64,000 bases of DNA, taken from IMG/VR virus record IMGVR_UViG_3300031485_000046; one strand, given 5' to 3'. Positions 11,596 to 42,581 of this stretch are shown here, in pieces (position 1 is the first letter of the stretch; each line of letters begins with the position of its first letter). The position numbers and the translations under genes are program-made. A model generated the notes under the pieces. The model did not search any database. It worked only from the letters and a program-made list of their open reading frames with translations, and had not been told where the DNA came from. This DNA comes from a virus.

Positions 11596-12162
11596 ATGGC
11601 ATATCGAAAATCAGGGAGACCTTTAGCAGTAGCAGAACCGTGGAATGAATCAATCCCAGAAAGGGCGTATGATCTTTGCCTTCTAGGATTGCGTGATGCC
11701 GATTTAGCCACGGCATTCGGAGTTTCTATATATACCATTGATAAATGGAAACAGACTCATCCAGAGTTTAGAGAAGCACTATCCAGAGGTAAAGAACAAG
11801 CTGACGCTAAAGTGGCAGACGCACTTTACCATAAGGCAGTAGGCTATGCCCATAAAGCTGTGGACATCAGAATAGTTGACGGCGAGGTAGTGAAAATACC
11901 ATACACTAAAATCTATCCACCAGATACTACTGCCTGCATATTCTGGTTGAAGAATAGGCAAAGACAGTACTGGACGGATACCAAGCAAAATGTTCATACT
12001 GGTACAGTGGGTGTGGAACATACTATGAGACGTCAACTTGACCTTTCTGATTTCTCCAAAGAAGAACTTGCCCTAGCAGAAAAACTAGCCTCTAGGATGC
12101 TTCAGGAGGGTACTCAGGATGCAGAGTTTACAGAAGAGGGGGAGAATGACGGGGATGAGTAA
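11596..12162 (+). CDS. terS: Terminase small subunit
   Basis: Immediately upstream of and overlapping terL; RBS AAAGGAG; family assignment is recalled resemblance to HTH-type small terminases. Confidence 0.7.
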   Translation: MAYRKSGRPLAVAEPWNESIPERAYDLCLLGLRDADLATAFGVSIYTIDKWKQTHPEFREALSRGKEQADAKVADALYHKAVGYAHKAVDIRIVDGEVVKIPYTKIYPPDTTACIFWLKNRQRQYWTDTKQNVHTGTVGVEHTMRRQLDLSDFSKEELALAEKLASRMLQEGTQDAEFTEEGENDGDE

Positions 12163-13714
12163 ATATGAACGTAAGGACGCCTTAAAACGCCAAAGAGAAA
12201 ACATCATCCCAAAATCAGATAGGTTCCAAGCATTACTTTTGAACCCATTGCAGATAAAAGCAGAAAAATGCCGTAGGTCCCTATTTGAATTTATGAAAGA
12301 ATTCTGGCCAGAAGTATCCACAAGTGACCCTACATGGAATTGGCATCTAGAATACCTAGCTAACGAACTGGAAAGGATGATGTATAGAGTAGCAAACAGA
12401 CAACCAAAAGAATACGACCTCATAATAAACATAAGCCCCGGTACCACAAAGTCTACCCTATGTTCCATAATGCTGAATGCATGGGTGTGGGCTAAATGGC
12501 CTTGGCTCCGATTCATCAACGCATCCTATTCTGGAGCCCTATCTCTGGAACATTCAGAATTGTGTCGTGACCTTATACGGTCAGAACGATACAAAAGGTT
12601 ATTCCCGTATTTGGAAATAAAGCAAGACAAGGATACCAAAACTAACTTTAAAATTTTATATGATGAAGAGCGTCTGGATTCCATAACAGGCGAAGCATCT
12701 ACACTAAAAAAGAGTGGTGGTAACAGATACTCCACCTCCGTAGGCGGCACCTTGACTGGATTCCATGCTGATGTACTGTTAGTAGACGATCCATTGGATC
12801 CGCAAAGAGCTGTATCCGACGTGGAAGTCCTTAAAGCCAACACATGGATAGATCAGACACTATCTACCAGAAAGGTAGATAAAGCGGTAACACCAACCAT
12901 AATCATAATGCAAAGGCTCCATCAGAATGACCCTACGGGTTATCTGCTATCCAAGAAGAATAAAAAGATAAAGCATATCTGCCTACCAGGTGAAATACGG
13001 AATTACAGGAAAAATTTGAAACCTAAAGCCCTAGCCAAGTATTATAAGGATGATCTGTTCGACCCTATAAGAATGCCATGGAAAGTCCTTGACGACCTAA
13101 GAGTAGACCTTGGTGAATTCGGGTATGCTTCCCAGATCGGCCAATCCGCAGTATCAGACAAGGGCAACTTATTCAAGGTAGAACACTTTCAAATCATCCA
13201 TAGTATGGTACCAGACCCAGACATAGTAAGATCCATACGATACTGGGACAAAGCCGGTACAGCTGGAGCTGGAGCATACACGGTGGGGGTACGAATGCTT
13301 GCATTGAATAATGGAAAATTCCTTATCACGGATGTTAAAAGAGGGCGGTGGTCCACAGAACAACGGGAAGCCATCATCAGACAGACTGCAGAAGCCGACG
13401 GTACAGACACAATAATCTGGCATGAACAAGAACCAGGTTCAGGCGGAAAAGAATCCGCAGAAGGCACTATAAGAAACCTAGCTGGATACACCACGTATGC
13501 AGATAGGGTAACTAGAAACAAGGAAATGAGAGCGGATCCATATTCAGTCCAAGTAAATAATGGTAACGTACTGTTACTATATGCTCCGTGGAACCAAGAC
13601 TTCATAGAAGAGCACAGATACTTCCCAAATTCAACATATAAGGATCAGGTAGACGCAGCCTCAGGAGCGTTCTCTAAGGCAGTACGGAAAAAGATAGCCG
13701 GTGCGATAGGATAA
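12155..13714 (+). CDS. terL: Terminase large subunit (ATPase plus RNase H-like nuclease)
   Basis: N-terminal ATPase region; C-terminal nuclease-domain pattern (IRYWDKAGTAGAGAY...DQVDAASGAF); start at ATG 12155 with RBS, overlapping terS stop. Confidence 0.9.
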   Translation: MSKYERKDALKRQRENIIPKSDRFQALLLNPLQIKAEKCRRSLFEFMKEFWPEVSTSDPTWNWHLEYLANELERMMYRVANRQPKEYDLIINISPGTTKSTLCSIMLNAWVWAKWPWLRFINASYSGALSLEHSELCRDLIRSERYKRLFPYLEIKQDKDTKTNFKILYDEERLDSITGEASTLKKSGGNRYSTSVGGTLTGFHADVLLVDDPLDPQRAVSDVEVLKANTWIDQTLSTRKVDKAVTPTIIIMQRLHQNDPTGYLLSKKNKKIKHICLPGEIRNYRKNLKPKALAKYYKDDLFDPIRMPWKVLDDLRVDLGEFGYASQIGQSAVSDKGNLFKVEHFQIIHSMVPDPDIVRSIRYWDKAGTAGAGAYTVGVRMLALNNGKFLITDVKRGRWSTEQREAIIRQTAEADGTDTIIWHEQEPGSGGKESAEGTIRNLAGYTTYADRVTRNKEMRADPYSVQVNNGNVLLLYAPWNQDFIEEHRYFPNSTYKDQVDAASGAFSKAVRKKIAGAIG

Positions 13715-15697: not shown

Positions 15698-15748
15698 TGG
15701 ATGGATTTTTCTGTTTTTCTGTTTTTCTGATTGTTGTACATCGTTTCT

Positions 15749-15797
15749 ACATTCTACATTCTACATTCTACATTCTACATTCTACATTCTGCATTTC
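15749..15797. repeat. Heptanucleotide tandem repeat ATTCTAC, about 7 copies
   Basis: Direct read of sequence. Confidence 0.75.
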
Positions 15798-16019
15798 AGA
15801 AGAATGCATGTGGTACTTTATAAGATGCATGTATGCAATGTCATATGCATCCTTAATTGTCTCCTGATTACTATACAATTATACACTATTCCTATTCCTG
15901 TTTCAATCGTAACAGATATTTTACTATTATATAATAATCTATAGTATTGTGTCATATTGTAGAATATTCTTATATTCATGAATATCAGACAAGCATAATG
16001 CAGAATGCATATTATACAA

Positions 16020-16213
16020 TGCATTATTCAGCTATATTTTTCACAAGCATTTTTTAGTAGTACAATGCATAATGCAGAATGCATCATGCATTATTCAATG
16101 AAACATTTCACAAGTGTTCATACAGTGCATACAATACATTCTGCATCATGCATCATGCATTATTCAGCTATATTTTTCACAAGCATTTTTTAGTAGTACA
16201 ATACATTCTGCAA
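16020..16213. repeat. Two copies of a 50-bp direct repeat (16021-16070, 16157-16206) plus three copies of TTCAATGAAAYATTTCACAAG
   Basis: Direct read of sequence; repeats about 136 bp apart. Confidence 0.6.
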
Positions 16214-16439
16214 TATGCATTGTATAGCATGTATTATTCAATGAAACATTTCACAAGTGTTACTGTATCCGAAGAGTATACAATGCATTTTTCAATGAAA
16301 TATTTCACAAGCGATACTGTGATCGAATTGTATCTGAATGACTATACAATTCACTATTATTTTATAAAACTCTATAGTATTGCAGAATACAGTAGAATTC
16401 AGTAGAATTATATTAAGTGTATAGTCTTTTCATGCATAG

Positions 16440-16467
16440 TTGACATTCTATCGTAGAGTGCTATACT
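16440..16467 (+). promoter_or_regulatory. Sigma-70-type promoter for three-gene cassette
   Basis: TTGACA (16440-16445), 16-nt spacer, TATACT (16462-16467). Confidence 0.5.
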
Positions 16468-16584
16468 GTACTCGTAGCAAGCGAGCGAGCAAGTTCTTTG
16501 ACAACTGAAGAAGCAAGCTCATAACAGAGTAACACTTCTTCAGAACATACGCGCACAACGTTGCGCAGAAAGAGAGTGTGTAGC

Positions 16585-16923
16585 ATGACAACGAGCAGCA
16601 AGAAGAACGTAAACAGTAAGAAAGCTGAAATAGTCGAACAGAAAGCAGTTGAAGTAAAGAAAGAAGAAGTAAGAGAAGCAAAGAAGATTAGCAATACTCA
16701 GAAGTGTGCTGATATGATCATGCAACTTGCGAAAGACGCTAAGTATACTCGCAGTGAAATTTGTAATGCTGTTTCAGATGCACTAACAGCATTAAGCATA
16801 GTCACAGTAAAGACTATGCTTTCAGACTTGCAGAACAGCAAGTATGCAAGACGTTATAGCACTCATACTATCGCAGTAAACAAAGAAACAAAGATTGTAA
16901 CAGTAGCAAGTGAGATAAAATGA
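16585..16923 (+). CDS. Hypothetical lysine-rich protein (cassette gene 1)
   Basis: ATG at 16585 downstream of promoter; 5' leader contains 9-bp inverted repeat CTGAAGAAG/CTTCTTCAG (16503-16545). Confidence 0.55.
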   Translation: MTTSSKKNVNSKKAEIVEQKAVEVKKEEVREAKKISNTQKCADMIMQLAKDAKYTRSEICNAVSDALTALSIVTVKTMLSDLQNSKYARRYSTHTIAVNKETKIVTVASEIK

Positions 16924-17132
16924 AGTATCAGCATGTTGAACGTTCGCAAGCTCTCGCAGTAAGTGACGTTGAAACTTTGCAGAATATTGCAAAAAGACGT
17001 CTGATCGATTTGAAACAGCTTGCAAGAGAAGCAGACTCTTTACTTGTCTTTTCAGTAATAAGAAATACATGTATTCAAATCGATCGAAGCATCGATGATG
17101 CACTTGAAAACGCAAGAAAATTACTGAAGTAG
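16920..17132 (+). CDS. Hypothetical protein (cassette gene 2)
   Basis: ATGA overlap with upstream stop. Confidence 0.5.
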   Translation: MKYQHVERSQALAVSDVETLQNIAKRRLIDLKQLAREADSLLVFSVIRNTCIQIDRSIDDALENARKLLK

Positions 17133-17141
17133 TACAAAAAA

Positions 17142-17185
17142 AGATAGTCAAGTATCTACAATTCGATACTTGACTATCTTTTTAT
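17142..17185 (+). terminator. Rho-independent terminator
   Basis: Perfect 15-bp stem AGATAGTCAAGTATC/GATACTTGACTATCT, 8-nt loop, T-rich tail. Confidence 0.6.
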
Positions 17186-17208
17186 CTCATTTGAAAGAGA
17201 GTGATACT

Positions 17209-17532
17209 ATGTTAGATAATCAGTATGAATTACATCAAAAGATACAAAAAATAGAACACAAGCATATCAGATTACATGCAAGCAATTGTATGTACAAATT
17301 GATGAATATTCAATTGTTACTTGAAGAACAGATTAATCTACTCATTTCTGATATTGTAGCAAATGATGCTTCTGTTAGTGAAATATTGCTAACAGAACGT
17401 CAAAGTACATTTGATAATGAACTTTTTGCGATAACGACAAAAGAAGATAGAAAAGCAATAGCAATACTGCATAATACTATAATCGATAGTATGAATGCAG
17501 TAAGAAAGACAATCATCTATACAGACGAATAA
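17209..17532 (+). CDS. Hypothetical protein (cassette gene 3)
   Basis: ATG at 17209 (MLDNQYELHQ) after weak RBS; ORF track start at 17170 lies inside the terminator. Confidence 0.5.
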   Translation: MLDNQYELHQKIQKIEHKHIRLHASNCMYKLMNIQLLLEEQINLLISDIVANDASVSEILLTERQSTFDNELFAITTKEDRKAIAILHNTIIDSMNAVRKTIIYTDE

Positions 17533-17574
17533 AATTACACAATAGAGCATAATTGATAGCAATTGAATAGAAAA

Positions 17575-17612
17575 GAGTAGTCAATACTAGACTACTCTTT
17601 TCTTTTTTATTC
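17575..17612 (+). terminator. Rho-independent terminator
   Basis: Stem AGAGTAGTC/GACTACTCT, 7-nt loop, T-run. Confidence 0.6.
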
Positions 17613-17750
17613 ATGCATACAATGCATGATGCATCCTGCACTATGCATAGTATAAGCGTTCATAGTAGCATTTGATAACATAACACTACACTATTTATTA
17701 CAATTAGACAATATACTACAATATGATAGTGTAGTGTGTATTGTCTATTC

Positions 17751-17794
17751 TATACACTACAATATAGACAAGTATACACTACAATATAGACAAG
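17751..17794. repeat. Tandem 22-bp direct repeat TATACACTACAATATAGACAAG (2 copies), flanked by inverted repeat ACACTACACTAT/ATAGTGTAGTGT
   Basis: Direct read of sequence. Confidence 0.6.
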
Positions 17795-17998
17795 TATAGA
17801 ATAGAGTATAATAATCTATAGTATGCTACACTATATAGCAATATAATATAATAATATATAATTGTATAGTAAAGCAGATACAATTCAATACAATGACTGC
17901 GCTAGTATACAATGCATGATGCATGATGCATCGTACACAATGCATAATGTAAAATCGATTTTACACGTTGCAGAATGCATGCTGGCTCCTGGCCCCCT

Positions 17999-18152
17999 CT
18001 AAAATTGTGACAAATTTTTCTGGATATTAAAATGGGTAATCCATTATTTTCTAAAGCATATTCATTATTTATTCTACGTATCTTTCACACACCCCTCGTA
18101 AAATTGCTACTGATTTTTCCCAATACTAAAGTGGGTAATCCATTATTTTCGA
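17999..18152. repeat. Two copies of about 55-bp element ending in TGGGTAATCCATTATTTTC (promoter-like)
   Basis: Copies at about 17999-18052 and 18094-18150; degenerate third at about 18340-18375. Confidence 0.55.
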
Positions 18153-18414
18153 TATATCTATTCTGTATGACTGTATAGATAGTATAAGATGCAGTATCCA
18201 ATTTTAACTAATGGATTAATATACCCAATTTACTCATACTATACGTATCTTCATGGATCCGTTTTCTTTCGTCTTTATTTTTACCATACCCCGTCATTCT
18301 GTATGAATTTATCCAAAAATAACCGCATAAATATTTTGTAAAAATTTATATGGGAGTTAAAATGGGTTGATTAGATCAGTAGAGAGGTTAGATCACACTA
18401 GGGAGTTAGATACG

Positions 18415-18452
18415 ATGCATCCTAGCCCGGATCCTGATAGGCTAGGATGCAT
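18415..18452. other. Perfect 13-bp inverted repeat (stem-loop) ATGCATCCTAGCC / GGCTAGGATGCAT with 12-nt loop
   Basis: Direct read of sequence; no T-run follows. Confidence 0.5.
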
Positions 18453-18674
18453 ATAGAAACTATGTTTGTCGTAATATATCTTGAAAACGCATCAGATTCG
18501 TTTCATACTGTGCGATTTCCTTGCTTATGGAAGCTGTTCGTTCTGTTTCAGACGTTGTTTCTATCGTCTAGAGTGAAAAAGATCGAATACCGTGCAAGGA
18601 TTTAACGTGTCATGCCATCCCATTCGGTTGTTCCCTCCGTCCTTGCGACTTTCCTATAAGGGATGGAAACCGGG

Positions 18675-18893
18675 TCATTTCGCCCGCTCCTCCCAGAACC
18701 GTCTGCGTCGCTCCTCCCTGTGACGCTTGATATTCTCCCGCACCCTCTGCGTGCGGGGCGGGAACGTGTTCAGATGGGTCAGCACCGGCTCCACGCTGAC
18801 AGCTCTGCCGAATTCCCTCTCCCATTCCTGGGCGTAGATTTCCTCGTAGGATAACATTTCGCGAAATCTGAGCCCCGTGCATCGTCCGCTCAT
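18675..18893 (-). CDS. Small basic, arginine-rich protein encoded in a GC-rich patch
   Basis: ATG overlaps stop of KdsB-like gene (ATGA); local composition visibly GC-richer than surroundings. Confidence 0.4.
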   Translation of the reverse strand: MSGRCTGLRFREMLSYEEIYAQEWEREFGRAVSVEPVLTHLNTFPPRTQRVRENIKRHREERRRRFWEERAK

Positions 18894-19684
18894 TCCTTAC
18901 CCTCCTTTTTTTCTATAATTTCATCATATTCATTTTCTTTACCAGAGTTTATTATACAACGAACAGCTTCCAAATCAGCAGGAGTATCTACACTAGGTCC
19001 AACTTTTTTTGCTCTTGTTATTTCTACTTTAATGGAAAAATCATGTTCTAATATTCTGAGCTGTTCCAGTGATTCTGCTGATGCCAAAGGTGTTTGTGGC
19101 ATTTTGGCATAATAATGGATTAAGAAACGTCTAGTAAATCCATAAATTCCTATATGTCGGTAGATGGGATATACTTCTTCCGGATCTCTAATAAAAGGGA
19201 TAGGAGACCTACTGAAATATAAAGCATCTCCATTTATTCTGAATGCCACTTTTACTACCGATGGATCATTGATAGTAGCGGTATCTGTAATAAGGGCACA
19301 TATCGTAGCAGATTCCGTAGCCCTATTTTCAGTTTTATAAAATAATGATATTACTTCATCAATCATACAAGGATTAAGTAATGGTTCATCCCCTTGTATG
19401 TTTATCACTATATTATTATTAGAGAATTTTTTAGCTATTTCCACAACTCTACTAGTTCCGTTTGTATGATTTGGAGAAGTTAGCATAGCTTCTCCACCGA
19501 AATTATTTACAGCCTGCACGATTCTTTCATCGTCAGTAGCTACAATCAACCGGTCAAGTAAAGTAGATCGTGAGGCTCGCTCGTACACTCTCTGGATCAT
19601 TGTTTTTCCGCATATATCAGCTAGAGGTTTACCGGGGAGCCTTGTAGAATTGTATCTAGCGGGGATAACTCCTAAAGTTATCAT
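18890..19684 (-). CDS. kdsB: CMP-Kdo synthetase-like cytidylyltransferase (3-deoxy-manno-octulosonate cytidylyltransferase family)
   Basis: IPARYNSTRLPGKPL, VATDDE, GGE, QGDEP, ALYFSR, HIGIYGF, LEQLR, VDTPADLE match KdsB signature blocks as recalled. Confidence 0.85.
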   Translation of the reverse strand: MITLGVIPARYNSTRLPGKPLADICGKTMIQRVYERASRSTLLDRLIVATDDERIVQAVNNFGGEAMLTSPNHTNGTSRVVEIAKKFSNNNIVINIQGDEPLLNPCMIDEVISLFYKTENRATESATICALITDTATINDPSVVKVAFRINGDALYFSRSPIPFIRDPEEVYPIYRHIGIYGFTRRFLIHYYAKMPQTPLASAESLEQLRILEHDFSIKVEITRAKKVGPSVDTPADLEAVRCIINSGKENEYDEIIEKKEGKE

Positions 19685-19703
19685 TATTTATCACTTCCAT
19701 TCA

Positions 19704-19850
19704 TTATTTAAGATTATGTGGTACTTTTTTGTCAAGTTCCAGTAATTTTGCATTAACTTTTTCTAGTTCAGCCATGAGAAATATTACCATATCGCATCTA
19801 TCAGGTAGTATTTTTTCTTTACCTGTTACTTTCCTCCATAATTCTACCAT
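19704..19850 (-). CDS. Short ORF (48 aa) paralogous to C-terminal half of the 20615-20914 protein; not in ORF track
   Basis: ELWRKVTGKEKILPDRCDMVIFLMAELEKVNAKL vs RLWRKTTGKDFIMPDRCDLVVYLMEELDKAKRRI; no clear RBS. Confidence 0.3.
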   Translation of the reverse strand: MVELWRKVTGKEKILPDRCDMVIFLMAELEKVNAKLLELDKKVPHNLK

Positions 19851-19906
19851 CGGGATTTGTCCAAAGTTTCTTGTTATTGTCGTATTTCTATCCAGTTCTA
19901 TAATAC

Positions 19907-20443
19907 TTATTCAGAAAGGTTGTCATGTTCACTTGCATTTTCCTCCTTTGTTGGAAGTGGTACCGGTAACTTTTCTTTTATGCAATTCATAAGGATTGTA
20001 TATTTCCTTTCTTGCATCATTTCTAATGCTTTTACCATCGTTTTTCCCCAACCATTACATGAATATTTTCCTAAGTCTTTAATGTAGGCAACGTATCCTT
20101 TCATTCCGTTTAGTTCTGTAGTCATTGGCTGAATTGTAATGGAATACGGAATTTTCATCAATTCATCTATAGTGGGATCCTCGTTTCTGTTTATATTTTG
20201 TGAAATTACCGACATATTTATCATGTCAAACCTATTAGACATACGGTCAGGTACGTTAATCGTAGCACCACATCCGGAGCATCGCAAAATTAAGGAATCT
20301 AATTCTGCAATCATTTTATATGGATTTGGATACGCATACTGTATTTGGTCAAGAGTGTCAATTGGTTTAGCGCAAAGTGGGCAAATTATTTGTCTACCGT
20401 CACAAAACAATACATAACGCCCTTGTCCTATAGAAAGACTCAT
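19907..20443 (-). CDS. Hypothetical protein with paired CxxC motifs
   Basis: 178-codon ORF with AAAGGAG RBS. Confidence 0.6.
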   Translation of the reverse strand: MSLSIGQGRYVLFCDGRQIICPLCAKPIDTLDQIQYAYPNPYKMIAELDSLILRCSGCGATINVPDRMSNRFDMINMSVISQNINRNEDPTIDELMKIPYSITIQPMTTELNGMKGYVAYIKDLGKYSCNGWGKTMVKALEMMQERKYTILMNCIKEKLPVPLPTKEENASEHDNLSE

Positions 20444-20637
20444 TCTTCCATCTCCTTTTTAAGCAAAGCCTTCTGCATTTTCCCCAAAGCCGCAAACAAC
20501 GTATCTTTACAACCCGTATAGATATACAGACTGCCCACAACTTTACCATCAACGAGTACAGTATATGTAGGAGATTTGATTGGCCCATGGTTCTCTTCGA
20601 GTATTATCACTATTTCATTCCCCCTTTTCCATTTCAC
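20440..20637 (-). CDS. Hypothetical small protein
   Basis: GTG start, no clear RBS, overlaps upstream gene by 23 nt. Confidence 0.35.
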   Translation of the reverse strand: MKWKRGNEIVIILEENHGPIKSPTYTVLVDGKVVGSLYIYTGCKDTLFAALGKMQKALLKKEMEE

Positions 20638-20914
20638 GTATTCTACGTTTAGCTTTATCCAATTCCTCCATCAGATATACTACTAAATCACATCTGTCTG
20701 GCATGATAAAATCTTTCCCTGTTGTTTTTCGCCATAGTCTTACCGCTCTCATATCCGCTTTCCATACAATATCGAACACATTCTGGAGTTGTTTAGCGTC
20801 TTCTTTCAAGGAATCCACGAGCATTTTCATATTTTCTAACCGTTTTTTCAAGGAATCTCTCTCTTTAACCAGCTTTTCTAGTTCTTGCATGAGCAATTTT
20901 CGATCACTTTCCAT
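20615..20914 (-). CDS. Hypothetical coiled-coil protein
   Basis: ATG 20912-20914 with AAGGAGGG RBS. Confidence 0.55.
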   Translation of the reverse strand: MESDRKLLMQELEKLVKERDSLKKRLENMKMLVDSLKEDAKQLQNVFDIVWKADMRAVRLWRKTTGKDFIMPDRCDLVVYLMEELDKAKRRIREMEKGE

Positions 20915-21044
20915 CAATGTCCCTCCTTATAAATTTGCGCTTCACTATATTATACAACACCATTTTTGCTCATTTATACATAGTTTTCCATGAAAATTGT
21001 GTTTAATTTGCAATTATAGTATACTGTATAGTTTTCTGTCATAG

Positions 21045-21073
21045 TAGACAAAATTGAATTATGGGTATATAAT
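21045..21073 (+). promoter_or_regulatory. Sigma-70-like promoter for morphogenesis operon
   Basis: TAGACA (21045-21050), 17-nt spacer, TATAAT (21068-21073). Confidence 0.5.
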
Positions 21074-21095
21074 GTATTTATAATACGGTAAGGAG

Positions 21096-22556
21096 GTGAG
21101 TAGGATAGAAAATATCAGTACCAACGAATTGGTTGGGCAATTACAGCGGATTACAGCTATGGCTGAACTGGCTACAAGAATGAATGTCGGTGCTAGGATG
21201 GGAATGCAGTATGACGGCCAACGGGATATTGCAAAAGCTCTTGGCTACCCACAAACAATACGGTACAACGACCTCCTTGCCGCATATACCCGTCAGGATA
21301 TGGCGAAAGCCATTATAGATCGTCCCGTAAAATCTACTTGGCGTGGAGATTTCAAGCTAGTAGAAACCCACAGGGACGATGATACGCAACTCGAAACAGC
21401 TTGGTCTACATTATATAGGAAATTGCACATAAAACAGAATTTCCTTAGAGTGGACAAGCTAGCCTGCCTCGGTAATTATGCTCTTCTTTTTCTTGGTTTC
21501 AATGATGTGAATAGTCCTGAAGAATTGATACGACCTGTTTCTGCTGGAGTAGGACGTGAATTGCTGTATTTGAAACCGTTTGGACAGAATGTCATTCAGA
21601 TCAAAGATTGGGAAGATGATACAAGTTCACCTGAATATGGAATGCCGCTTATTTATGAAGTAGACATTGGAGAAGCATCATCTAAAAAGAGCCGAACTGT
21701 CAGCATCCATCGGTCAAGGATTGTTCATGTAGCTTTCGACCTACTTGAATCAGAGTATGAAGGTGCTCCTGTTCTAGAAGTTGTTTTTAACCGTCTGAAA
21801 GACCTTGAAAAGCTAGTAGGCGGTTCTGCTGAAATGTTCTGGAGAGGTGCTAGACCTGGATATGCAGGTAAAATTGATCCAGAATACATGCTGACGAAAG
21901 ATACGGAAGAGGGATTGAAACGCCAGCTGGATGAGTTTGAAAATAATCTGCGAAGGATACTCATGCTTGAAGGTGTTACACTCGATAGCCTTGAGCCGCA
22001 GGTAGTTGACCCGTCTATGCACGTTGATATCCAGATTCAGATGATTTCTGCTATTACTGGTATTCCTAAGAGAATTCTTACAGGAAGTGAGCGAGGTGAT
22101 CTTGCTTCTACGCAAGACAAAGATAACTGGCTCGACCTTATCCAAATGCGACGGGAAGAATATGCTGAACCTAAGATCATTCGAGCAACCATTGACCGTT
22201 GTATTGAATTTGGTGTGCTTCCTAAGCCTGAAAAGGAAACATACAAAATAAAATGGCAGGATCTTTATGCACCGTCTGTTAAGGATCAAGCGGACATTGG
22301 GCAGATACGTTCGCTTGCCTTGAAACATTATACGTACAATCCTGAAGCAGAGCAGTTTATCCCGTTTGAAGCGTTCCTTACATTCTTCCTTGGTTTGGAA
22401 GATGAGGAAGTGGAGTATATCAAAAAGCTCCAGCAAACAAGTGAAAGGATATTGACGCCTGAATTAAAGGAACTTGCGAATGAAAATGCACCAACACGGA
22501 GAGAACGCCCTCCGCGGAGAGGAATACCTCGAGAGGATGAAGAACTAGAAAAGTGA
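21096..22556 (+). CDS. Portal protein
   Basis: Size and position (first gene of head module after terminase region); GTG start abuts RBS so true start may be downstream. Confidence 0.75.
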   Translation: MSRIENISTNELVGQLQRITAMAELATRMNVGARMGMQYDGQRDIAKALGYPQTIRYNDLLAAYTRQDMAKAIIDRPVKSTWRGDFKLVETHRDDDTQLETAWSTLYRKLHIKQNFLRVDKLACLGNYALLFLGFNDVNSPEELIRPVSAGVGRELLYLKPFGQNVIQIKDWEDDTSSPEYGMPLIYEVDIGEASSKKSRTVSIHRSRIVHVAFDLLESEYEGAPVLEVVFNRLKDLEKLVGGSAEMFWRGARPGYAGKIDPEYMLTKDTEEGLKRQLDEFENNLRRILMLEGVTLDSLEPQVVDPSMHVDIQIQMISAITGIPKRILTGSERGDLASTQDKDNWLDLIQMRREEYAEPKIIRATIDRCIEFGVLPKPEKETYKIKWQDLYAPSVKDQADIGQIRSLALKHYTYNPEAEQFIPFEAFLTFFLGLEDEEVEYIKKLQQTSERILTPELKELANENAPTRRERPPRRGIPREDEELEK

Positions 22557-22568
22557 GCAGGCTATTGG

Positions 22569-22629
22569 GGCAGACTAGGGAAATAACTACACTTACTTAT
22601 AATGGGCAGGTTTATTTGCCCTAGTCTGC
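22569..22629 (+). promoter_or_regulatory. Stem-loop between portal and scaffold genes
   Basis: GGCAGACTAGGG (22569-22580) pairs with CCCTAGTCTGC (22619-22629); internal GGGCA/TGCCC sub-hairpin. Confidence 0.4.
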
Positions 22630-22696
22630 TTCTCCTGCTCCAGCTATTCTTCATTCTCCTGATAATATAGATTGCAAAGGAGGTGGTGATTAAACA

Positions 22697-24121
22697 ATGA
22701 CAACCGCAGTAATCAGTATGTATCAGGTGCAGGCAAATAATTATGAAATTCGTATGGAAACGTACATGGGAAGAAAGCATTTGATCGTTCCTGTAGTGAT
22801 GATGGTAGAAGGTGTGCATTGTGGTAGTGCTGGCCCGTTGTTTCATTCAATAGAAGAGCTTGGTAAGTACCCTGATTCTTGGAATGGAATCCCTGTTTCT
22901 ATTCAGCATCCCGAGCAAGATGGGCAGTATATTTCCGCAAACAGTCCTGAAGTTCTTGAACGGCAGACTGTTGGGCAGGTTTTCAATACGTTTGTTGATG
23001 GAAATAAGCTAAAAGCAGAGTGCTGGATTGACATTGAACGTATTACCACTATTAGTCCAGAAGCATACGCATATCTCCAGAATAAACGACCTCTGGAAGT
23101 GAGTATTGGTGTGTTTTCAGATGATATTCCACAAGAAGGCGATTGGAACGGAGAACATTATATAGCTGTTGCCACCAATCATCGTCCTGATCATCTTGCT
23201 CTTCTTCCTGGTGGCAGAGGTGCGTGTTCCTGGGCAGATGGAGCAGGTATCAGAGCCAATTCTATGAAGAAAGGAGGAGAGCCGGTGGATATTACTGCAA
23301 CGATAAAGGATCTTGTGTGTAAAGGATATGGAGTTCTATCGTATCAGAGTAATGAAGGTTTTCGTTCCATTATGTCGCAGATACAGGATGTGCTCAATGG
23401 GTACGATACGGGTCTAAAACTGCATTATCTGTCGGAAGTATACGAGGATTTTTTCGTATATGAGGTGAATTCTCGTATCAATCCAGAAACCTACATTACA
23501 TCCGTAAAGTATTACAAACGTCCGTATTCTGTTAATGAAGATGGAAAAGTTACGCTGGGAGATGTAGCTACGGAAGTGATGCGCAAAATTGTGTATGATG
23601 AGGTTAAAACTAATTCCAAGTATCGAAGAAAGGATGATGTGAAAGTGGACAAAGCAAAAATGGATATTCTGGTCCAGAGCGGAGTGTTTTCCGAAGCTGA
23701 CCAGGAGTGGCTTACGGGACTCGATGCCGAGCGCCTTGATAAGCTGGTTACTGCTTGCACTAAGAAAGTGGAAACTCCGCAGGCGAATGAGGCGAAAGTG
23801 GATATTCCCACAGTCATTCAGGCACTGGCTGAACAGTTTAAGACTCCTGAGCAGTACATCCAGCTGATGCCGGAAGAAATGCGTGATCAGATGGAATCGG
23901 GACTGAAACTGCACAGGGAACAGCGTCAGGCAGTCATTGACAAGATCAAGGCGTTCAATGTATTTTCGGAAGAAGAGCTTCAGAAAAAATCTATGGATGA
24001 ACTGAACAAGATTTCTAAGCTGATTCCTGCGCCTAGGGATTATTCGCTTGCCGGAGCCAAATCTGTCAATACGAATACGGAAACTGAGGAAGTTCTGCTT
24101 CCTCTCGGGCTGAAAGCCTAA
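22697..24121 (+). CDS. Putative prohead protease/scaffolding protein
   Basis: Position after portal; N-terminal globular domain followed by acidic coiled-coil region; RBS AAAGGAGGTGGTG. Confidence 0.55.
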   Translation: MTTAVISMYQVQANNYEIRMETYMGRKHLIVPVVMMVEGVHCGSAGPLFHSIEELGKYPDSWNGIPVSIQHPEQDGQYISANSPEVLERQTVGQVFNTFVDGNKLKAECWIDIERITTISPEAYAYLQNKRPLEVSIGVFSDDIPQEGDWNGEHYIAVATNHRPDHLALLPGGRGACSWADGAGIRANSMKKGGEPVDITATIKDLVCKGYGVLSYQSNEGFRSIMSQIQDVLNGYDTGLKLHYLSEVYEDFFVYEVNSRINPETYITSVKYYKRPYSVNEDGKVTLGDVATEVMRKIVYDEVKTNSKYRRKDDVKVDKAKMDILVQSGVFSEADQEWLTGLDAERLDKLVTACTKKVETPQANEAKVDIPTVIQALAEQFKTPEQYIQLMPEEMRDQMESGLKLHREQRQAVIDKIKAFNVFSEEELQKKSMDELNKISKLIPAPRDYSLAGAKSVNTNTETEEVLLPLGLKA

Positions 24122-24142
24122 TAAAAAGGAGGGTAAAAGAAT

Positions 24143-24634
24143 ATGGCGTACAATACCATCAAAGTTAAGAAGTATTCGGATGTTATTGAGGAGAAAGTTG
24201 CCAGTGCGGCAATCACTCCGGGTATGCTTCTCATCATTGAAAGTGCAGGTACTGTGAAAGCGCACGATCAGGCGGATAAGGACGCATTTCCTATTTTCGC
24301 ACTTGAGGACGAACTTCAGGGCAAAGGGATTGATGATGCGTATGCAGCGAATGACCCTGTCCAGTGCTGGATTCCCTATCGCGGAGATATTGTGAATGCT
24401 ATTCTCGCTGACGGACAGAAGGTTGTTATTGGGGATCCTCTTACCAGTGATGGCTACGGTCGCCTGAAGAAGCATGTTACCGACGTTGGTGCGTCTGCGG
24501 CTGAACTTGTTTCCGTGTACCCGCTACAGATTGTTGGGTATGCCGCCGAAGCTCTTGACCTGTCTGGTTCTAGCGGAGCCGAAGTTTCAGGCCCTCTCGG
24601 CTATCACAAGCGCCTGCTCGTCAGGATTGCGTAA
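24143..24634 (+). CDS. Putative head decoration protein
   Basis: Small ORF immediately upstream of capsid gene (lambda D-E-like order); RBS AAGGAGGG. Confidence 0.45.
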   Translation: MAYNTIKVKKYSDVIEEKVASAAITPGMLLIIESAGTVKAHDQADKDAFPIFALEDELQGKGIDDAYAANDPVQCWIPYRGDIVNAILADGQKVVIGDPLTSDGYGRLKKHVTDVGASAAELVSVYPLQIVGYAAEALDLSGSSGAEVSGPLGYHKRLLVRIA

Positions 24635-24661
24635 TCACAAACATAAGGAGGAGTGCTGAAT

Positions 24662-25783
24662 ATGGAACCCAATGTCTATATGGATTTTCTTGCTAACGGA
24701 GCGGCTCAGGGAGAAGTTGCCCAGAACCTTCAGGTGAATGGTCGGCTTGATCCTGCTATGCTTCGTCCGTATATTGGAAGGGATGGAGCATCCTACATCA
24801 CCGTCTGCAAACACGGTGCTGATCCCAAGGATCCTAAGAGTTATCAGTCTATCCGCGTGAATTCTGGTGCAACTCTTCGCAGAGAAGAGTGGCAGTATCT
24901 GGACGAGGCTGTTCTCAATGTTTCTCGGTATCGTCTTGGCGGTATTGCTGACCTTGAGGCAAACGGACTTGTTTACAACCTCAACAATGCTATGGGAACC
25001 ACCGTTCTTGAGTACCATGATGTATCTGACGCTTTCGAGGCAGAACTTACGATGGATGGGGTTACTAGGAGCAAGGGAGACCGTGTGAATTTCGGTGCAA
25101 AGTACCTGCCCATTCCTATCATTCATGTGGACTACGAGATTAATGCTCGTGTTCTTGCCGCTTCTCGTAGCCTTGGTAATGCGCTCGATACGACTCAGGC
25201 AGAAGTTGCCGCTCGTAAGGTTATGGAGAAGCTAGAGAAAATGATGTTCACCAGCGAAACTTACTCGTTTGGTGGGGGAACAATCTATTCTCTTGTCAAT
25301 CATCCTCATCGTAATCCTGTTACTCTCACGGTGAATTGGGATGATAGTACGTCTACTTCTTCTGGTGATCCTGTCATTACAGGTGCAAAGATCATTCAGG
25401 ATGTTCTTGCTATGAAGCAGGCAAGCATTGATGCTTACCACTATGGTCCCTGGATGCTATACATTCCGACCGCATACGAAACAGTCCTTGACTCGGATTA
25501 TGATACCGTTACGCCTGGCACTACGATTCGGGAGAGGATTATGAAGATCGAAGGTATCAAAGGTATCAAGGTTATTGATGTACTCGCTTCCAATAACGTG
25601 CTCCTTGTGCAGATGACCCCCGATGTGGTTCGCCTTGTGAAGGGCATGGCTATTCAGAACGTGGAATGGCAGACTGAGGGACGCTTCATCAATAAGTACA
25701 AAGTTATGACGATCCAGGTTCCTCAGGTTCGTTCTGACTACAACCAGAAGAGCGGCATCGTTCATCTCGCTCCTGCACCCTAA
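24662..25783 (+). CDS. Major capsid protein
   Basis: Size and position; ATG 24662 with AAGGAGG RBS. Confidence 0.7.
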   Translation: MEPNVYMDFLANGAAQGEVAQNLQVNGRLDPAMLRPYIGRDGASYITVCKHGADPKDPKSYQSIRVNSGATLRREEWQYLDEAVLNVSRYRLGGIADLEANGLVYNLNNAMGTTVLEYHDVSDAFEAELTMDGVTRSKGDRVNFGAKYLPIPIIHVDYEINARVLAASRSLGNALDTTQAEVAARKVMEKLEKMMFTSETYSFGGGTIYSLVNHPHRNPVTLTVNWDDSTSTSSGDPVITGAKIIQDVLAMKQASIDAYHYGPWMLYIPTAYETVLDSDYDTVTPGTTIRERIMKIEGIKGIKVIDVLASNNVLLVQMTPDVVRLVKGMAIQNVEWQTEGRFINKYKVMTIQVPQVRSDYNQKSGIVHLAPAP

Positions 25784-25830
25784 AGGTTAATATCAGGCTA
25801 ATCACGCCTATATAAAGGAGGCATGTAAAA

Positions 25831-26259
25831 ATGGTTGAAAGTAAGGCAGTAAAGAAAAAGGTAGTAAAGAAAAAGGTTGTTGAAAAGAAAGAACCTGAAA
25901 TTACTACTTCCAAAACTGAGGTGATTACTCCTCAGATTGTTGTTACCCCTCCGGGAATGTGTACATGGAGGAAAAAGGAAGGTGCTACATTCAGGCTTGG
26001 TAATGGTAAGAAAGTAAAGCCGAATGAAGTATTCAAGGCGTATCCTCGTGAAATTCCGCCTGCATTTCGTGACCTGTTTGAATTGCTTGAAGGTGATGAG
26101 AATGCTGTGGAACGAGTGATTACCGCTCCTTCTAAGTTTGCTATTGGTGAACGTGAAGACGGTATGTTTGATGTAGTTGATCCTGATGGTAAGTGTATCA
26201 ATGATGTTCCGCTCGGTAAAGAGGATGCCGAAAAACTGCTTATAGCACTCTCTACTTGA
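25831..26259 (+). CDS. Hypothetical protein with lysine-rich N-terminus
   Basis: RBS AAGGAGG; 142 codons. Confidence 0.6.
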   Translation: MVESKAVKKKVVKKKVVEKKEPEITTSKTEVITPQIVVTPPGMCTWRKKEGATFRLGNGKKVKPNEVFKAYPREIPPAFRDLFELLEGDENAVERVITAPSKFAIGEREDGMFDVVDPDGKCINDVPLGKEDAEKLLIALST

Positions 26260-26263
26260 TACA

Positions 26264-26977
26264 ATGCGGGCGTGGAATACTCCGAGGATATGGGATAAAG
26301 GTGAATGTTGGATAATAGGAGGAGGACCTTCTATTATGCGACAGTTCCATATTCCTGAGAATGTGATTGAGGCGGTTAGAGAAAAAAGATTACCGCTTTC
26401 TGCATATTCTCCGTACATGGAAAGCATTCATTCTAAGCATATCATCGGAGTAAACATGGCATTCCAGCTAGGAAATTGGGTTGATTTTTGTTTCTTCGGA
26501 GACGATGGTTGGTTTCGGGACCATAGAAAAGAATTAGCCCAATTTACTGGTGTAAGGGTATCTTGCGCACCTATGTTCAGTAAAAATACGTACCATGCAG
26601 ATAATGGGGAACGTATTAAGTACCTAGCGCAGGATCCTAAAAAATCACACGGTATTAGTGAAGTACCTTACACCGTATGTTGGAATGCAAATAGCGGAGC
26701 GGCGGCAATCAGCCTAGCTTCTCATCTAGGTGCTAAAAAGATTGTTCTGTTAGGATTCGATATGCAGTTAGATCCTAATGGAAATAGTCATTGGCACAAA
26801 GAGTATCAAATGAATCCAGCAAAACGATCCGTGTTTCCTCGACACCTTAGAGGGTTTCCAATTATCGCCGCGGATGCTAAACGGATGGGCATCGAAATAC
26901 TAAATGCCTCACCTGAAAGCGTAATAGACGATTTTCCTAAAATGACAGTGGAGGCGATATTGAATGGTTCTCCATAA
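26264..26977 (+). CDS. Sialyltransferase-like (CMP-sugar-dependent) glycosyltransferase candidate 1
   Basis: Motifs CWIIGGGPS, SGAAAISLASHLGAKKIVLLGFD, HWHKE resemble GT42/GT29-type and Maf/DUF115-type transferases (recalled). Confidence 0.6.
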   Translation: MRAWNTPRIWDKGECWIIGGGPSIMRQFHIPENVIEAVREKRLPLSAYSPYMESIHSKHIIGVNMAFQLGNWVDFCFFGDDGWFRDHRKELAQFTGVRVSCAPMFSKNTYHADNGERIKYLAQDPKKSHGISEVPYTVCWNANSGAAAISLASHLGAKKIVLLGFDMQLDPNGNSHWHKEYQMNPAKRSVFPRHLRGFPIIAADAKRMGIEILNASPESVIDDFPKMTVEAILNGSP

Positions 26978-27578
26978 AAACAATATCGCGGTTATAGGAC
27001 ACGGTCCTAGCACTCGTGGAAGGAAACTAGGCAGTTTCATTAACCTTTGTGATACGGTCATTCGCATGATCGAATGTGATTGGCAGGATGCAGAAGATTA
27101 CGGTAGTAAATATACGATCGGTGTATATGCTACGGGAGGATCTGACGATTTTACAAAGGTGATTGAACGAAAGCCTTCTCTTTGCTGGTGGGTGTACGTT
27201 GCGGCTGGAACCCGTCCTTCTACGGCGATGAATGATGATACAGTAGATGCTCCAGGTGTTGCGGGTCGTCCGATACGGTGGTTACGAAGAACCGTATGGG
27301 ATTGGATCGGTGATAATAAAAAGTTCTCTAGAGGTACTGCTGCCGCGATTGCGTCTATGGCGATCCTAAAACCCACTACAGTTCATTTAGTTGGGTTTGA
27401 TGATGTTGCAAGGGGTGGAATGCTGAAAGGAGCATATCATCCTCCTGAGTTGCAACAGTACCTCAAAGAACAAGGAAAGACACTTGCCAGAAGTGAAACA
27501 GACCATGATTGGAATAATGAAGGCACCGTACTCCAACGTGCCGCAGACTATTACGGAGTTGAGGTGAATTTTCTATGA
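26964..27578 (+). CDS. Sialyltransferase-like glycosyltransferase candidate 2 (paralogue)
   Basis: Motifs IAVIGHGPS, RGTAAAIASMAILKPTTVHLVGFDD, HDWNNE; RBS GGAGGCG. Confidence 0.6.
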   Translation: MVLHKNNIAVIGHGPSTRGRKLGSFINLCDTVIRMIECDWQDAEDYGSKYTIGVYATGGSDDFTKVIERKPSLCWWVYVAAGTRPSTAMNDDTVDAPGVAGRPIRWLRRTVWDWIGDNKKFSRGTAAAIASMAILKPTTVHLVGFDDVARGGMLKGAYHPPELQQYLKEQGKTLARSETDHDWNNEGTVLQRAADYYGVEVNFL

Positions 27579-28813: not shown

Positions 28814-29526
28814 AACCGTATGTAGAATCTCCCATTATCATAACAGGTTGTCCACGAAGCGGAACTAGCATCATTTCTGGGATGTTAGAAATATGTGGTG
28901 CATTTGCAGGAACTATTCCACAGCCTACGAAACACGAAACAAGAGGCATGGGAGAGAATCGGGTTATATATGAGGATGTTGTTAAACCGTATATTCAGAG
29001 TTTGCAAGCGGATCCATCTGGACAATGGCCATTGATGGATTCTGAAAAACTGATGATTCCTATCGACTGGGAATCAATGATTTCAGACGCCTTGCACAAG
29101 GATGGCTATATGGGAGGCAAATGGCTATATAAGAGTAATACTGCGGCTCTTATGTGGAAAGTGTGGTCCTACGCCTATCCTAGCGCCAAATGGGTCCTAG
29201 TACGCAGGCGTACAGGTGACATAGTTTCTTCATGTTTGCAGACCTCGTATATGAAAGCATTCAAAAATCCTGCATATCGTAAGGAAATTGGAGCGGAAAC
29301 AGAATCAGAAGCATGGATCCATTGGGTACATAAGTATGAAGAAGCCTTTGTAGGGATGTTGACTGCGGGAGTTAATTGTAAGGTTGTCTGGCCGGAAAGA
29401 TTCGTAAGAAACGATTATCAACAGTTGTATGAAGTAATTGAATGGGTAGGGCTTGAATGGAAATCTTCTGTAGCAGATTATCTAGACCCAAAGCTATGGA
29501 AGAATGAACGGAAGGAGGAGTGCTGA
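28810..29526 (+). CDS. Sulfotransferase
   Basis: IIITGCPRSGTSIISGML (5'-PSB PAPS-binding motif) and VLVRRRTGDIVSS (3'-PB-like); ATG 28810 overlaps upstream stop (ATGA). Confidence 0.7.
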   Translation: MKPYVESPIIITGCPRSGTSIISGMLEICGAFAGTIPQPTKHETRGMGENRVIYEDVVKPYIQSLQADPSGQWPLMDSEKLMIPIDWESMISDALHKDGYMGGKWLYKSNTAALMWKVWSYAYPSAKWVLVRRRTGDIVSSCLQTSYMKAFKNPAYRKEIGAETESEAWIHWVHKYEEAFVGMLTAGVNCKVVWPERFVRNDYQQLYEVIEWVGLEWKSSVADYLDPKLWKNERKEEC

Positions 29527-39773: not shown

Positions 39774-39794
39774 AACGTTACTTTCGGGGCAAGG

Positions 39795-41947: not shown

Positions 41948-41953
41948 GAGGTG

Positions 41954-42478: not shown

Positions 42479-42490
42479 GAGGGGGATCGT

Positions 42491-42577: not shown

Positions 42578-42581
42578 AAAA

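What the first reader, a model, noticed from the sequence alone, without database searches (positions are those of the whole stretch)
18600..18893. GC-rich patch encoding a small arginine-rich protein downstream of the KdsB-like gene
About 300 bp here are visibly GC-richer than the AT-rich surroundings, and they encode a 72-aa basic protein whose ATG overlaps the stop of the KdsB-like gene (ATGA). Composition contrast suggests a recently acquired segment (moron); the protein has no recognisable motif.
Basis: seen in the sequence. Interest (0 to 1): 0.45.

Follow-up and report, generated by a model that had tools for sequence, protein, structure and literature searches.

The report
Imported single-gene patch in a phage
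The GC-rich patch is real: it is one small gene of unknown function that this AT-rich phage picked up from a GC-rich phage lineage, an ordinary case of phage genome mosaicism, though seen here with unusually sharp edges.

Summary
Observation confirmed. Window 18671-18902 is 60% GC against about 30-35% on both sides. This is the sharpest local GC contrast in the 64 kb. It holds a 72-codon ORF (18675-18893, minus strand) whose ATG overlaps the kdsB stop codon (ATGA).

The ORF is a real gene. Across 14 alleles, substitutions concentrate at third codon positions, and omega is about 0.12-0.2.

The block was imported.
- Copies 93-94% identical in DNA sit in GC-rich (53-61%) phage contigs. Those contigs otherwise share only 30-67% protein identity with this phage.
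- Two contigs that are 98-99% identical to this phage carry kdsB but not the ORF. Their homology stops at 18899.
- Homology to the donor family covers only the ORF, 9 nt upstream and 4 nt downstream.
- The 5' crossover lies in a Shine-Dalgarno-like microhomology. That stretch belongs to a 24-nt linker repeated at many gene junctions in the donor gene arrays.

It is not a canonical moron. The block has no room for its own promoter or terminator and depends on the kdsB operon.

The protein is 15/72 arginine, pI 10.3, with three predicted helices. It has no detectable homolog or fold match. Its function is unknown; nucleic-acid binding is my inference only.

This is ordinary phage mosaicism involving an orphan gene family.

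The parts
18671..18902 (-). Imported GC-rich mosaic block (232 bp, 60.3% GC): ORF72, the 3' part of a conserved inter-gene linker, and 4 nt past the stop
   Evidence: blastn of the window against 10 GC-rich loci gives 91-94% identity confined to 18671..18902. The block is absent from L024 and L025, which match the window at 98-99% only from 18899 rightwards.
18675..18893 (-). ORF72: 72-aa arginine-rich protein (pI 10.3). Predicted disordered N-terminus (residues 1-15) and helices at 16-28, 34-43 and 49-71
   Evidence: ORF listed. Among 14 alleles, 17 of 30 variable sites are at codon position 3 (p=0.007). Variable codons are 15 synonymous to 10 nonsynonymous in this frame, against at best 11:15 in the other five frames. 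dN/dS is 0.12 against the common donor allele. AlphaFold2 model, pLDDT 69.
18890..18893 (-). ATGA overlap: ORF72 start codon and kdsB stop codon share these bases
   Evidence: Read directly from the sequence. The same ATGA overlap follows every upstream gene in the donor loci.
18899..18907 (-). Shine-Dalgarno AAGGAGGG (18900-18907, 6-nt spacer to the ATG) and the 5' crossover zone (18899-18905)
   Evidence: Homology to close relatives ends at 18899 and homology to donors starts at 18902. Three-way alignment: window GGAGGGTAAGGAATGA, relative GGAGAGTGCATCTAA, donor CGAGGGGTGAGGAATGA. Coordinates.
18890..19684 (-). kdsB (CMP-Kdo synthetase, 264 aa), the gene upstream of ORF72. Its last residues were rewritten by the junction: ..EIIEKKEGKE* here, ..EIIKKGECI* in relatives
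   Evidence: Pfam CTP_transf_3 at 1.5e-56. NCBIfam KdsB models above their cut-offs. Relatives' 263-aa version.
21013..21042 (-). Predicted sigma-70-like promoter (ATGACA-18-TATAAT, 11 of 12). It would drive the leftward accessory operon 20917->18675, which ends with ORF72
   Evidence: Consensus scan only. There is no experimental support.
18600..18670 (.). Origin unknown
   Evidence: blastn with word size 7 and tblastx against all loci found nothing.

Best explanation
The patch is a 232-bp mosaic segment (18671-18902) holding exactly one protein-coding gene, ORF72.

Shown:
- The gene belongs to a family known only from metagenomes. Its members sit in arrays of small, translationally coupled accessory genes in GC-rich (53-61% GC) phages.
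- The window phage (about 35-42% GC here) has it at the 3' end of kdsB, where its closest relatives have unrelated AT-rich sequence.
- The 5' junction lies within a Shine-Dalgarno-like stretch (GGAG/GGGT). This is the 3' part of a 24-nt linker (AGGAAAGCGAGGGGTGAGGAATGA) that recurs between many different genes in the donor arrays.
- The 3' junction lies 4 nt after the stop codon.
- The reading frame is under purifying selection.

Inferred:
- The gene moved from the GC-rich lineage into this one during co-infection, by recombination at short homology. It has since drifted towards A/T.
- It is transcribed as the last gene of the leftward accessory operon, from the promoter-like site near 21.03 kb. 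It is translated by coupling to kdsB through the ATGA overlap and the AAGGAGG site.
- Its product is a small three-helix protein with a strongly basic C-terminal helix (pI 11.8 over the last 27 residues). I think it most likely acts by binding nucleic acid, as a small regulator or host-takeover factor. This functional part is a guess, at roughly 35-45%.

The confidence given (0.8) applies to the origin and anatomy: an imported single gene, coding, and dependent on the kdsB operon. It does not apply to the function.
For: Composition.

Donor family:
- Copies 92-97% identical in protein and 91-94% in DNA, in 23 loci with conserved synteny (Ea22/Y8K6-like genes upstream; a 58-aa gene, DUF4406, DNMK, 3D and dUTPase downstream).
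- All other genes shared between the two lineages are only 30-67% identical in protein.

Absence in close relatives:
- L025 is 98.2% identical over window 18899-24345.
- L024 is 99.1% identical over 18899-19949.
- Both carry kdsB followed by unrelated sequence.

Coding: (omega 0.12-0.20).

AT-biased drift: of 12 differences from the donor consensus, 9 are GC->AT and 2 are AT->GC.

Linker: 29 occurrences, all on the coding strand at gene junctions. It lies in front of 5 different downstream genes and behind at least 7 different upstream genes.

Repeated traffic: relatives of the window phage (L023, L024, L029, L031, L032, L033) carry other GC-rich patches, 85-93% identical to other pieces of the donor arrays.

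Same sequencing series: loci of both lineages come from runs ERR2642256-ERR2642288.

Not a large-scale chimera: tetranucleotide signatures on the two sides of the patch correlate at 0.84-0.92.

Protein features.
Against: - Direction of transfer is not shown by phylogeny. The window allele is the longest branch and sits outside the donor alleles rather than nested among them. Direction rests on composition alone.
- The junction is seen on a single contig. The exact protein P0001 and the 264-aa KdsB occur only on the 64,752-bp contig.
- The recipient's original sequence at the 3' side is unknown, so insertion and replacement cannot be told apart.
- Nothing supports any specific function. There are no remote homologs among 1.84 billion representative proteins, no family or PDB hit and no significant fold match.
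- Promoter and translational coupling are read from sequence patterns only.
Confidence: 0.8

Rival explanations
1. Canonical moron: an autonomous transcription unit with its own promoter and terminator, inserted between two phage genes and expressed independently, for example from a prophage.
For: GC content differs sharply from the surroundings and the element is absent from close relatives. Both are hallmarks in the definition (PMC3594210).
Against: - The imported DNA starts 9 nt before the ATG and ends 4 nt after the stop, which leaves no room for a promoter or terminator.
- The start codon overlaps the kdsB stop codon.
- No promoter-like site lies between kdsB and ORF72, and no minus-strand terminator follows it.
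- The downstream flank also differs from the relatives, so this is not a clean insertion.
Confidence: 0.07
2. Reverse direction or ancient residency: ORF72 is native to the window lineage, or to a third source, and spread from there into the GC-rich phages. Its GC content would then be held up by selection.
For: The window allele is the most divergent and is not nested within the donor alleles.
Against: - GC3 of 0.75 matches the GC-rich contigs (53-61% GC overall), not the window's genes (GC3 0.18-0.56).
- Window-specific changes are 9 GC->AT against 2 AT->GC.
- Relatives at 98-99% identity lack the gene.
- The gene sits in conserved synteny in 23 GC-rich loci.
Confidence: 0.07
3. Assembly chimera: the metagenome assembler spliced 232 bp of a co-occurring GC-rich phage into this contig.
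For: The junction is seen on one contig only. Both lineages occur in the same kinds of samples.
Against: - It would need two template switches 232 bp apart, each at 4-9 nt of shared sequence.
- The window allele has 7 substitutions seen in no GC-rich copy, and they lean towards A/T.
- kdsB carries a 2-nt change that puts it in frame with the new stop codon.
- The two sides of the patch share one tetranucleotide signature.
Confidence: 0.04
4. The conserved block acts as a non-coding element, either a structured RNA or a DNA site, and the ORF is incidental.
For: High nucleotide conservation across mosaic contexts. A terminator-like hairpin lies on the plus strand at 18705-18726.
Against: - The substitution pattern fits the ORF72 frame and no other.
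- Folding is no more stable than shuffled sequence (z -1.66 and -1.49).
- There is no Rfam match.
- The number of terminator-like hits equals the chance expectation.
Confidence: 0.04
5. Vertical gene whose GC-richness reflects only its arginine-rich amino-acid composition.
For: 15 of 72 residues are arginine.
Against: The GC excess is greatest at third codon positions (GC3 0.753; GC1 0.56, GC2 0.48). Relatives at 98-99% identity lack the gene, and near-identical DNA exists in unrelated backbones.
Confidence: 0.01

Closest known systems
Mosaic patches of temperate phage genomes (segments >90% identical within genomes about 50% identical), as discussed by Martinsohn, Radman and Petit 2008 (PMC2327257)
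   Same: A patch 94% identical in DNA lies between lineages that are otherwise 30-67% identical in protein. The borders fall at gene boundaries. [quoted passage not shown]
   Different: The patch is a single 72-codon gene with only 4-9 nt of flank. The partners differ by about 20 GC points. Only 4-7 nt of homology is visible at the 5' crossover, which is closer to illegitimate or microhomology recombination.
Phage morons (HK97 gene 15 type; Cumby et al. 2012, PMC3594210)
   Same: Extra DNA absent from close relatives, with deviating GC content that implies horizontal transfer.
   Different: It has no promoter or terminator of its own and is translationally coupled to the upstream gene. It lies in a hypervariable accessory operon rather than between two conserved late genes. 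Prophage expression is unknown.
Arrays of small accessory genes in lambdoid phages (ea/nin regions; Ea22-like and P22 Y8K6-like genes). This comparison is from my own knowledge of those phages
   Same: The donor context is a string of small genes overlapping by 4 nt, including Phage_P22_Y8K6 (PF27050) members. The window's leftward operon has a distant Ea22-like relative (33% identity).
   Different: ORF72 matches no named ea or nin protein. The 24-nt linker repeated at junctions is a feature of this family of contigs.
Ribbon-helix-helix repressors of the Arc/Mnt type
   Different: No statistical support: BLASTP E 0.22-1.1, hhalign probability 0.4%, no Pfam RHH or Arc hit. ORF72 also has an extra 23-residue basic helix.

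Membership tests
Phage moron (definition in PMC3594210) | Extra DNA present in one phage and absent at that position in close relatives | tested here: met
   L024 and L025 (98-99% nt identity) have kdsB but not ORF72. Caveat: the downstream flank also differs, so this may be a replacement rather than an insertion.
Phage moron (definition in PMC3594210) | [quoted passage not shown] | tested here: met
   60.3% against 29.5% and 34.9% in the flanks; GC3 0.75 against 0.23 in kdsB.
Phage moron (definition in PMC3594210) | Own promoter and terminator (independent transcription unit) | tested here: not met
   The imported block extends 9 nt upstream of the ATG and 4 nt past the stop. The ATG overlaps the kdsB stop codon. 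No promoter-like or minus-strand terminator-like site adjoins it.
Phage moron (definition in PMC3594210) | Expressed from the repressed prophage, to the host's benefit | not testable with these tools
   No expression data are available, and it is unknown whether this phage is temperate.
Recombinational mosaic patch (PMC2327257) | Segment >90% identical in DNA between genomes that are otherwise far more diverged | tested here: met
   91-94% nt identity over 18671-18902. Other shared genes are 30-67% identical in protein and show no DNA match.
Recombinational mosaic patch (PMC2327257) | Short conserved flanking sequences that could support homologous exchange | tested here: inconclusive
   A 24-nt linker recurs at 29 junctions in the donor arrays. 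In the window only its last ~13 nt are present, and the recipient's kdsB end shares only a GGAG..GT microhomology with it. No 3' linker was identified.
Arc/MetJ ribbon-helix-helix DNA-binding proteins | Sequence or profile similarity to RHH families | tested here: not met
   Pfam gives no RHH or Arc hit at E<=10. BLASTP against Arc gives E 0.22-1.1. hhalign against an Arc/Mnt alignment gives probability 0.4%.
Arc/MetJ ribbon-helix-helix DNA-binding proteins | Strand-helix-helix fold forming an intertwined dimer | tested here: inconclusive
   NF003952 scores 287 bits (cut-off 193). TIGR00466 scores 212 bits (cut-off 155). The match covers residues 3-247 of 264.

The most novel reading that the evidence does not exclude
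ORF72 would be a 'plug-and-play' cassette. The conserved 24-nt linker carries a stop codon for whatever gene lies upstream, a ribosome-binding site and the ATG. That would let single accessory genes be swapped between unrelated phage backbones, across a 20-point GC gap, by recombination at the linker. ORF72 itself would be a new class of small arginine-rich nucleic-acid-binding effector, for example a regulator or counter-defence factor. Its value independent of the backbone would explain why it stays at least 90% identical (90-97% among the variants aligned) while every neighbour varies.
Probability: 0.12. Interest if true: 0.6.

Novelty: new member of a known kind. Interest (0 to 1): 0.3.

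Why it matters
- It is a clean, base-resolved example of single-gene exchange between two phage lineages of very different base composition. This implies that they meet in the same cells.
- It shows how an imported gene can be expressed with no regulatory DNA of its own, by docking onto the stop codon of a resident gene.
- It flags an orphan protein family, found only in metagenomes, that stays at least 90% identical in protein (90-97% among the variants aligned) while its neighbours are shuffled. That makes it a reasonable candidate for functional screening.
- None of this changes current understanding of phage evolution.

Tried and rejected
1. Remote homology. Exhaustive phmmer over 1.84 billion representatives gave only a 94%-identical copy and P0004. 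P0004 is a 1933-aa tandem-repeat protein that matches through 17 weak repeats of 'TGHCSGL..'. I take it as a false positive.
2. Family and structure libraries. Pfam, PHROGs, NCBIfam, PADLOC and the PDB sequence search gave nothing. The best PDB E-values were 1.3-2.8, on arginine-rich helices.
4. Ribbon-helix-helix (Arc/Mnt) idea, raised by eye. Not supported by BLASTP, hhalign or Pfam.
5. Non-coding RNA. No Rfam family at gathering threshold or at E<=1 within the block, no tRNA, and folding z-scores of only -1.5 to -1.7.
6. Idea that the KdsB C-terminal tail (..EKKEGKE) is a relic of the donors' ..RKARGEE tail. Rejected. Relatives without ORF72 have the same tail up to ..EII, and only the last 6-7 residues changed at the junction.
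7. The alternative 90-aa ORF in another frame (18610-18882). Its substitution pattern is 3 synonymous to 23 nonsynonymous, so it is not coding.
8. The 60-aa gene calls for this family (P0008). These are start-codon choices by the gene caller. The DNA holds the full 72 codons, and codons 3-11 vary only synonymously.
9. Other collections. No relative of ORF72, kdsB or the 178-aa gene in IMG/VR. No ORF72 in GTDB species genomes, deposited phage genomes or plasmids.
10. Origin of 17900-18670 (which includes the 18350-18670 flank). No match to any fetched locus.

Full report
**1. What the window is**

The 64-kb window is a tailed-phage genome with no close relative among deposited phages.
- Small and large terminase lie at 11596-13714.
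- The portal gene lies at 21096-22556, followed by structural and lysis genes to about 43.9 kb. Early genes are on the minus strand.
- Between terminase and portal lies a 7-kb island. It holds AT-rich repeats (15.75-18.4 kb) and a leftward operon (20917->18675).
- That operon encodes an Ea22-like 100-aa protein, a 65-aa protein, a 178-aa zinc-ribbon/HicB-like protein, a 48-aa protein, KdsB and finally the ORF in question.
- Promoter-like sites point in both directions at 21013-21073.

**2.

- The patch 18600-18893 is 57.5% GC, against a window mean of 41.9% and flanks of 30-35%.
- The block later defined by homology, 18671-18902, is 60.3% GC. That is the top 0.36% of 232-nt windows. Its contrast with its flanks (+26 points) is the largest in the window.
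- The GC excess is strongest at third codon positions: GC3 is 0.753, against 0.18-0.56 in 22 other genes. Arginine codons therefore do not explain it.
- The 72-codon ORF, its ATGA overlap with the kdsB stop codon, and an AAGGAGGG site 6 nt upstream can be read directly.
- The neighbour is a genuine KdsB by curated NCBIfam thresholds.

**3. It is a gene**

- Fourteen distinct nucleotide alleles were collected from the window and 21 further full-length copies at metagenomic loci.
- Of 30 variable sites, 17 fall at codon position 3 of the ORF72 frame (p=0.007).
- Variable codons are 15 synonymous to 10 nonsynonymous in this frame. The other two forward frames give 3:23 and 5:21, and the reverse frames at best 11:15.
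- Nei-Gojobori estimates give dS 0.207 and dN 0.024 (omega 0.12) between the window allele and the common donor allele. Pooled pN/pS is 0.17-0.20.
- Codons 3-11 vary only synonymously, so the first ATG, not Met13, is the start.
- The block folds no better than shuffled sequence and matches no Rfam family.

**4. Where it came from**

- Protein searches found only near-identical copies (90-97% identity among the variants aligned), 78 sequences in three clusters, all from metagenomes.
- Their contigs are GC-rich: 53-61% for L002-L010, while L001 is 48% overall with an AT-rich 5' end. They are phage-like.
- In those contigs ORF72 sits in a string of small genes overlapping by 4 nt. Variable Ea22/P22-Y8K6-like, zinc-ribbon, membrane or HTH_17 genes lie upstream. 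A 58-aa gene, DUF4406, dNMP kinase, a 3D-domain protein and dUTPase usually follow. The arrays lie a few kb from terminase or lysis genes.
- DNA identity between the window and these loci is 91-94% and is confined to 18671-18902.
- Everything else the two lineages share is only 30-67% identical in protein: endolysin 53%, dNMP kinase 55%, 3D protein 67%, dUTPase 36%, Ea22-like 33%.

**5. The decisive comparison**

- The 178-aa neighbour and KdsB led to contigs of the window's own lineage.
- L025 is 98.2% identical to the window over 18899-24345. L024 is 99.1% identical over 18899-19949 and 97.3% over 20452-27412.
- Both encode KdsB (263 aa, ending ..EIIKKGECI*). After it they carry unrelated AT-rich sequence with 69-aa genes, and no ORF72.
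- So homology with relatives stops at 18899, and homology with donors begins at 18902.
- At the junction the window reads GGAGGGTAAGGAATGA, the relatives GGAGAGTGCATCTAA, and the donors CGAGGGGTGAGGAATGA. The crossover therefore lies in a 4-7-nt Shine-Dalgarno-like microhomology.
- A 2-nt difference just upstream puts kdsB in frame with the imported TGA.

**6. The linker, and repeated traffic**

- The donor side of the junction is part of a 24-nt linker, AGGAAAGCGAGGGGTGAGGAATGA, which encodes ..(R/K)KARGEE*.
- It occurs 29 times in the fetched loci, always on the coding strand at a gene junction. It lies in front of five different downstream genes and behind at least seven unrelated upstream genes. 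This explains why ORF72 follows so many different genes in the donor arrays.
- The window lineage has drawn on the same gene pool repeatedly. L023, L024, L029, L031, L032 and L033 each carry other GC-rich patches (50-67% GC) that are 85-93% identical to other pieces of the donor arrays. Some end exactly at a linker.
- The cargo end of the operon, left of about 19827, differs in almost every relative. kdsB itself is present in only some of them.
- Loci of both lineages come from the same run series, ERR2642256-ERR2642288.

**7. Direction and age of the transfer**

- The window allele differs from each donor allele at 12-17 of 219 nt. It is the longest branch and is not nested among the donor alleles, so phylogeny does not give the direction.
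- Composition does. GC3 of 0.75 fits the GC-rich contigs and not this genome. Of 12 differences from the donor consensus, 9 are GC->AT and 2 are AT->GC, as expected for an import drifting towards its new genome's composition.

**8. Is it an artefact?**

- A chimera would need two template switches 232 bp apart, each at a few shared bases.
- The allele carries private, AT-biased substitutions.
- The tetranucleotide signature is the same on both sides of the patch (r 0.84-0.92).
- Still, the junction is seen on one contig only. Read mapping is the missing check.

**9. How it is probably expressed (inference)**

The block brings no promoter or terminator. ORF72 is most likely the last cistron of the leftward operon, transcribed from the site at 21013-21042. 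It would be translated by coupling to kdsB through the ATGA overlap, helped by the AAGGAGG site. No canonical terminator follows it. The nearest strong hairpin (18414-18452) lacks a U-tract.

**10. What the protein does**

This is not resolved.
- It is basic (pI 10.3). The core is acidic (first 45 residues, pI 5.2) and the last 27 residues have pI 11.8.
- AlphaFold2 (pLDDT 69) gives a disordered N-terminus and helices at 16-28, 34-43 and 49-71.
- No sequence family, solved structure or predicted viral structure matches.
- A by-eye resemblance to Arc/Mnt ribbon-helix-helix repressors failed every statistical test.
- My working guess is a small nucleic-acid-binding accessory protein. It rests only on charge, size and context.

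**11. Comparison with known systems, and verdict**

- The patch fits the classic phage mosaic patch: more than 90% identity inside otherwise diverged genomes, with borders at gene boundaries (PMC2327257).
- It meets two moron criteria, absence from relatives and deviant GC content. It fails the defining one, its own promoter and terminator (PMC3594210).
- It is a new member of a known kind. The orphan family and the recurrent linker are its only mildly unusual features.

Noticed in passing
window 15750-18400: AT-rich (24-33% GC), repeat-dense, largely non-coding DNA flanks a plus-strand three-gene module (16561-17532). It contains ATGCAT(C/G)-type heptamer runs in inverted orientation on the two sides (for example 16142-16161 against 17911-17930, 20 nt, 100% complementary). 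It also has a perfect 22-nt tandem at 17751-17794 and (TCTACAT)n at 15746-15794. It lies between terminase and portal and could be an origin, a regulatory region or a packaging region.
   Followed up: no
window 17993-18367: A 59-nt unit occurs twice (17993-18051 and 18092-18150, 80% identical), with a third, partial 26-nt copy at 18342-18367. Each holds a plus-strand promoter-like TTGxxA-16/17-TAAAAT just before AAAATGGGT. The copies point towards the 3' end of ORF72, so they could give transcription convergent with the kdsB-ORF72 operon.
   Followed up: no
window 18414-18452: A perfect 14-bp-stem hairpin (GATGCATCCTAGCC..GGCTAGGATGCAT) lies about 220 nt downstream of ORF72. It has no U-tract on either strand, and its stem contains the ATGCATCC motif of the repeat region.
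   Followed up: no
loci L001-L022, L033, L036 (for example L004:2955-2978 and L004:3433-3456): A 24-nt linker, AGGAAAGCGAGGGGTGAGGAATGA (encoding ..KARGEE*, a ribosome-binding site and the next ATG), recurs at 29 gene junctions between unrelated small genes. It looks like a recombination adaptor for shuffling gene cassettes.
   Followed up: partly
window 18350-19827, compared with L023-L035: The distal end of the leftward operon is hypervariable among phages 96-99% identical elsewhere. At least six different cargo sets occur, and kdsB is present only in the window, L024 and L025. Several relatives carry other GC-rich patches taken from the same GC-rich phage gene pool.
   Followed up: partly
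window 34000-43000: The tail-tip, fibre and lysis region is 47-55% GC, with peaks of 58-65%. Its tetranucleotide signature correlates poorly with the rest of the window (r 0.22-0.39) and better with the GC-rich phages (0.40-0.56). It may be a second, much larger and older mosaic segment. The endolysin at 42582-42968 is 53% identical to the one in L006.
   Followed up: partly
window 18890-19684; L039, L040: A phage-borne CMP-Kdo synthetase implies a host with Kdo-containing envelope glycans (a diderm host). Outside short metagenome-assembled-genome contigs (L037, L038), the only genome-collection relatives of the phage's 3D-domain protein are in Negativicutes (Anaerospora hongkongensis, Sporomusaceae), at 39% identity. 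This is a weak host hint.
   Followed up: partly
window 27575-29526: A Methyltransf_23 protein (412 aa) and a Sulfotransfer_3 protein (243 aa) sit inside the virion structural module and are conserved in relatives. They could modify the virion or a glycan.
   Followed up: no
proteins P0011, P0022 (87 aa): Some family members carry an altered, longer C-terminus (..RFWEEWCESTKRPHRGSGGRCGG), apparently from a frameshift or deletion at the 3' junction with the next gene.
   Followed up: no
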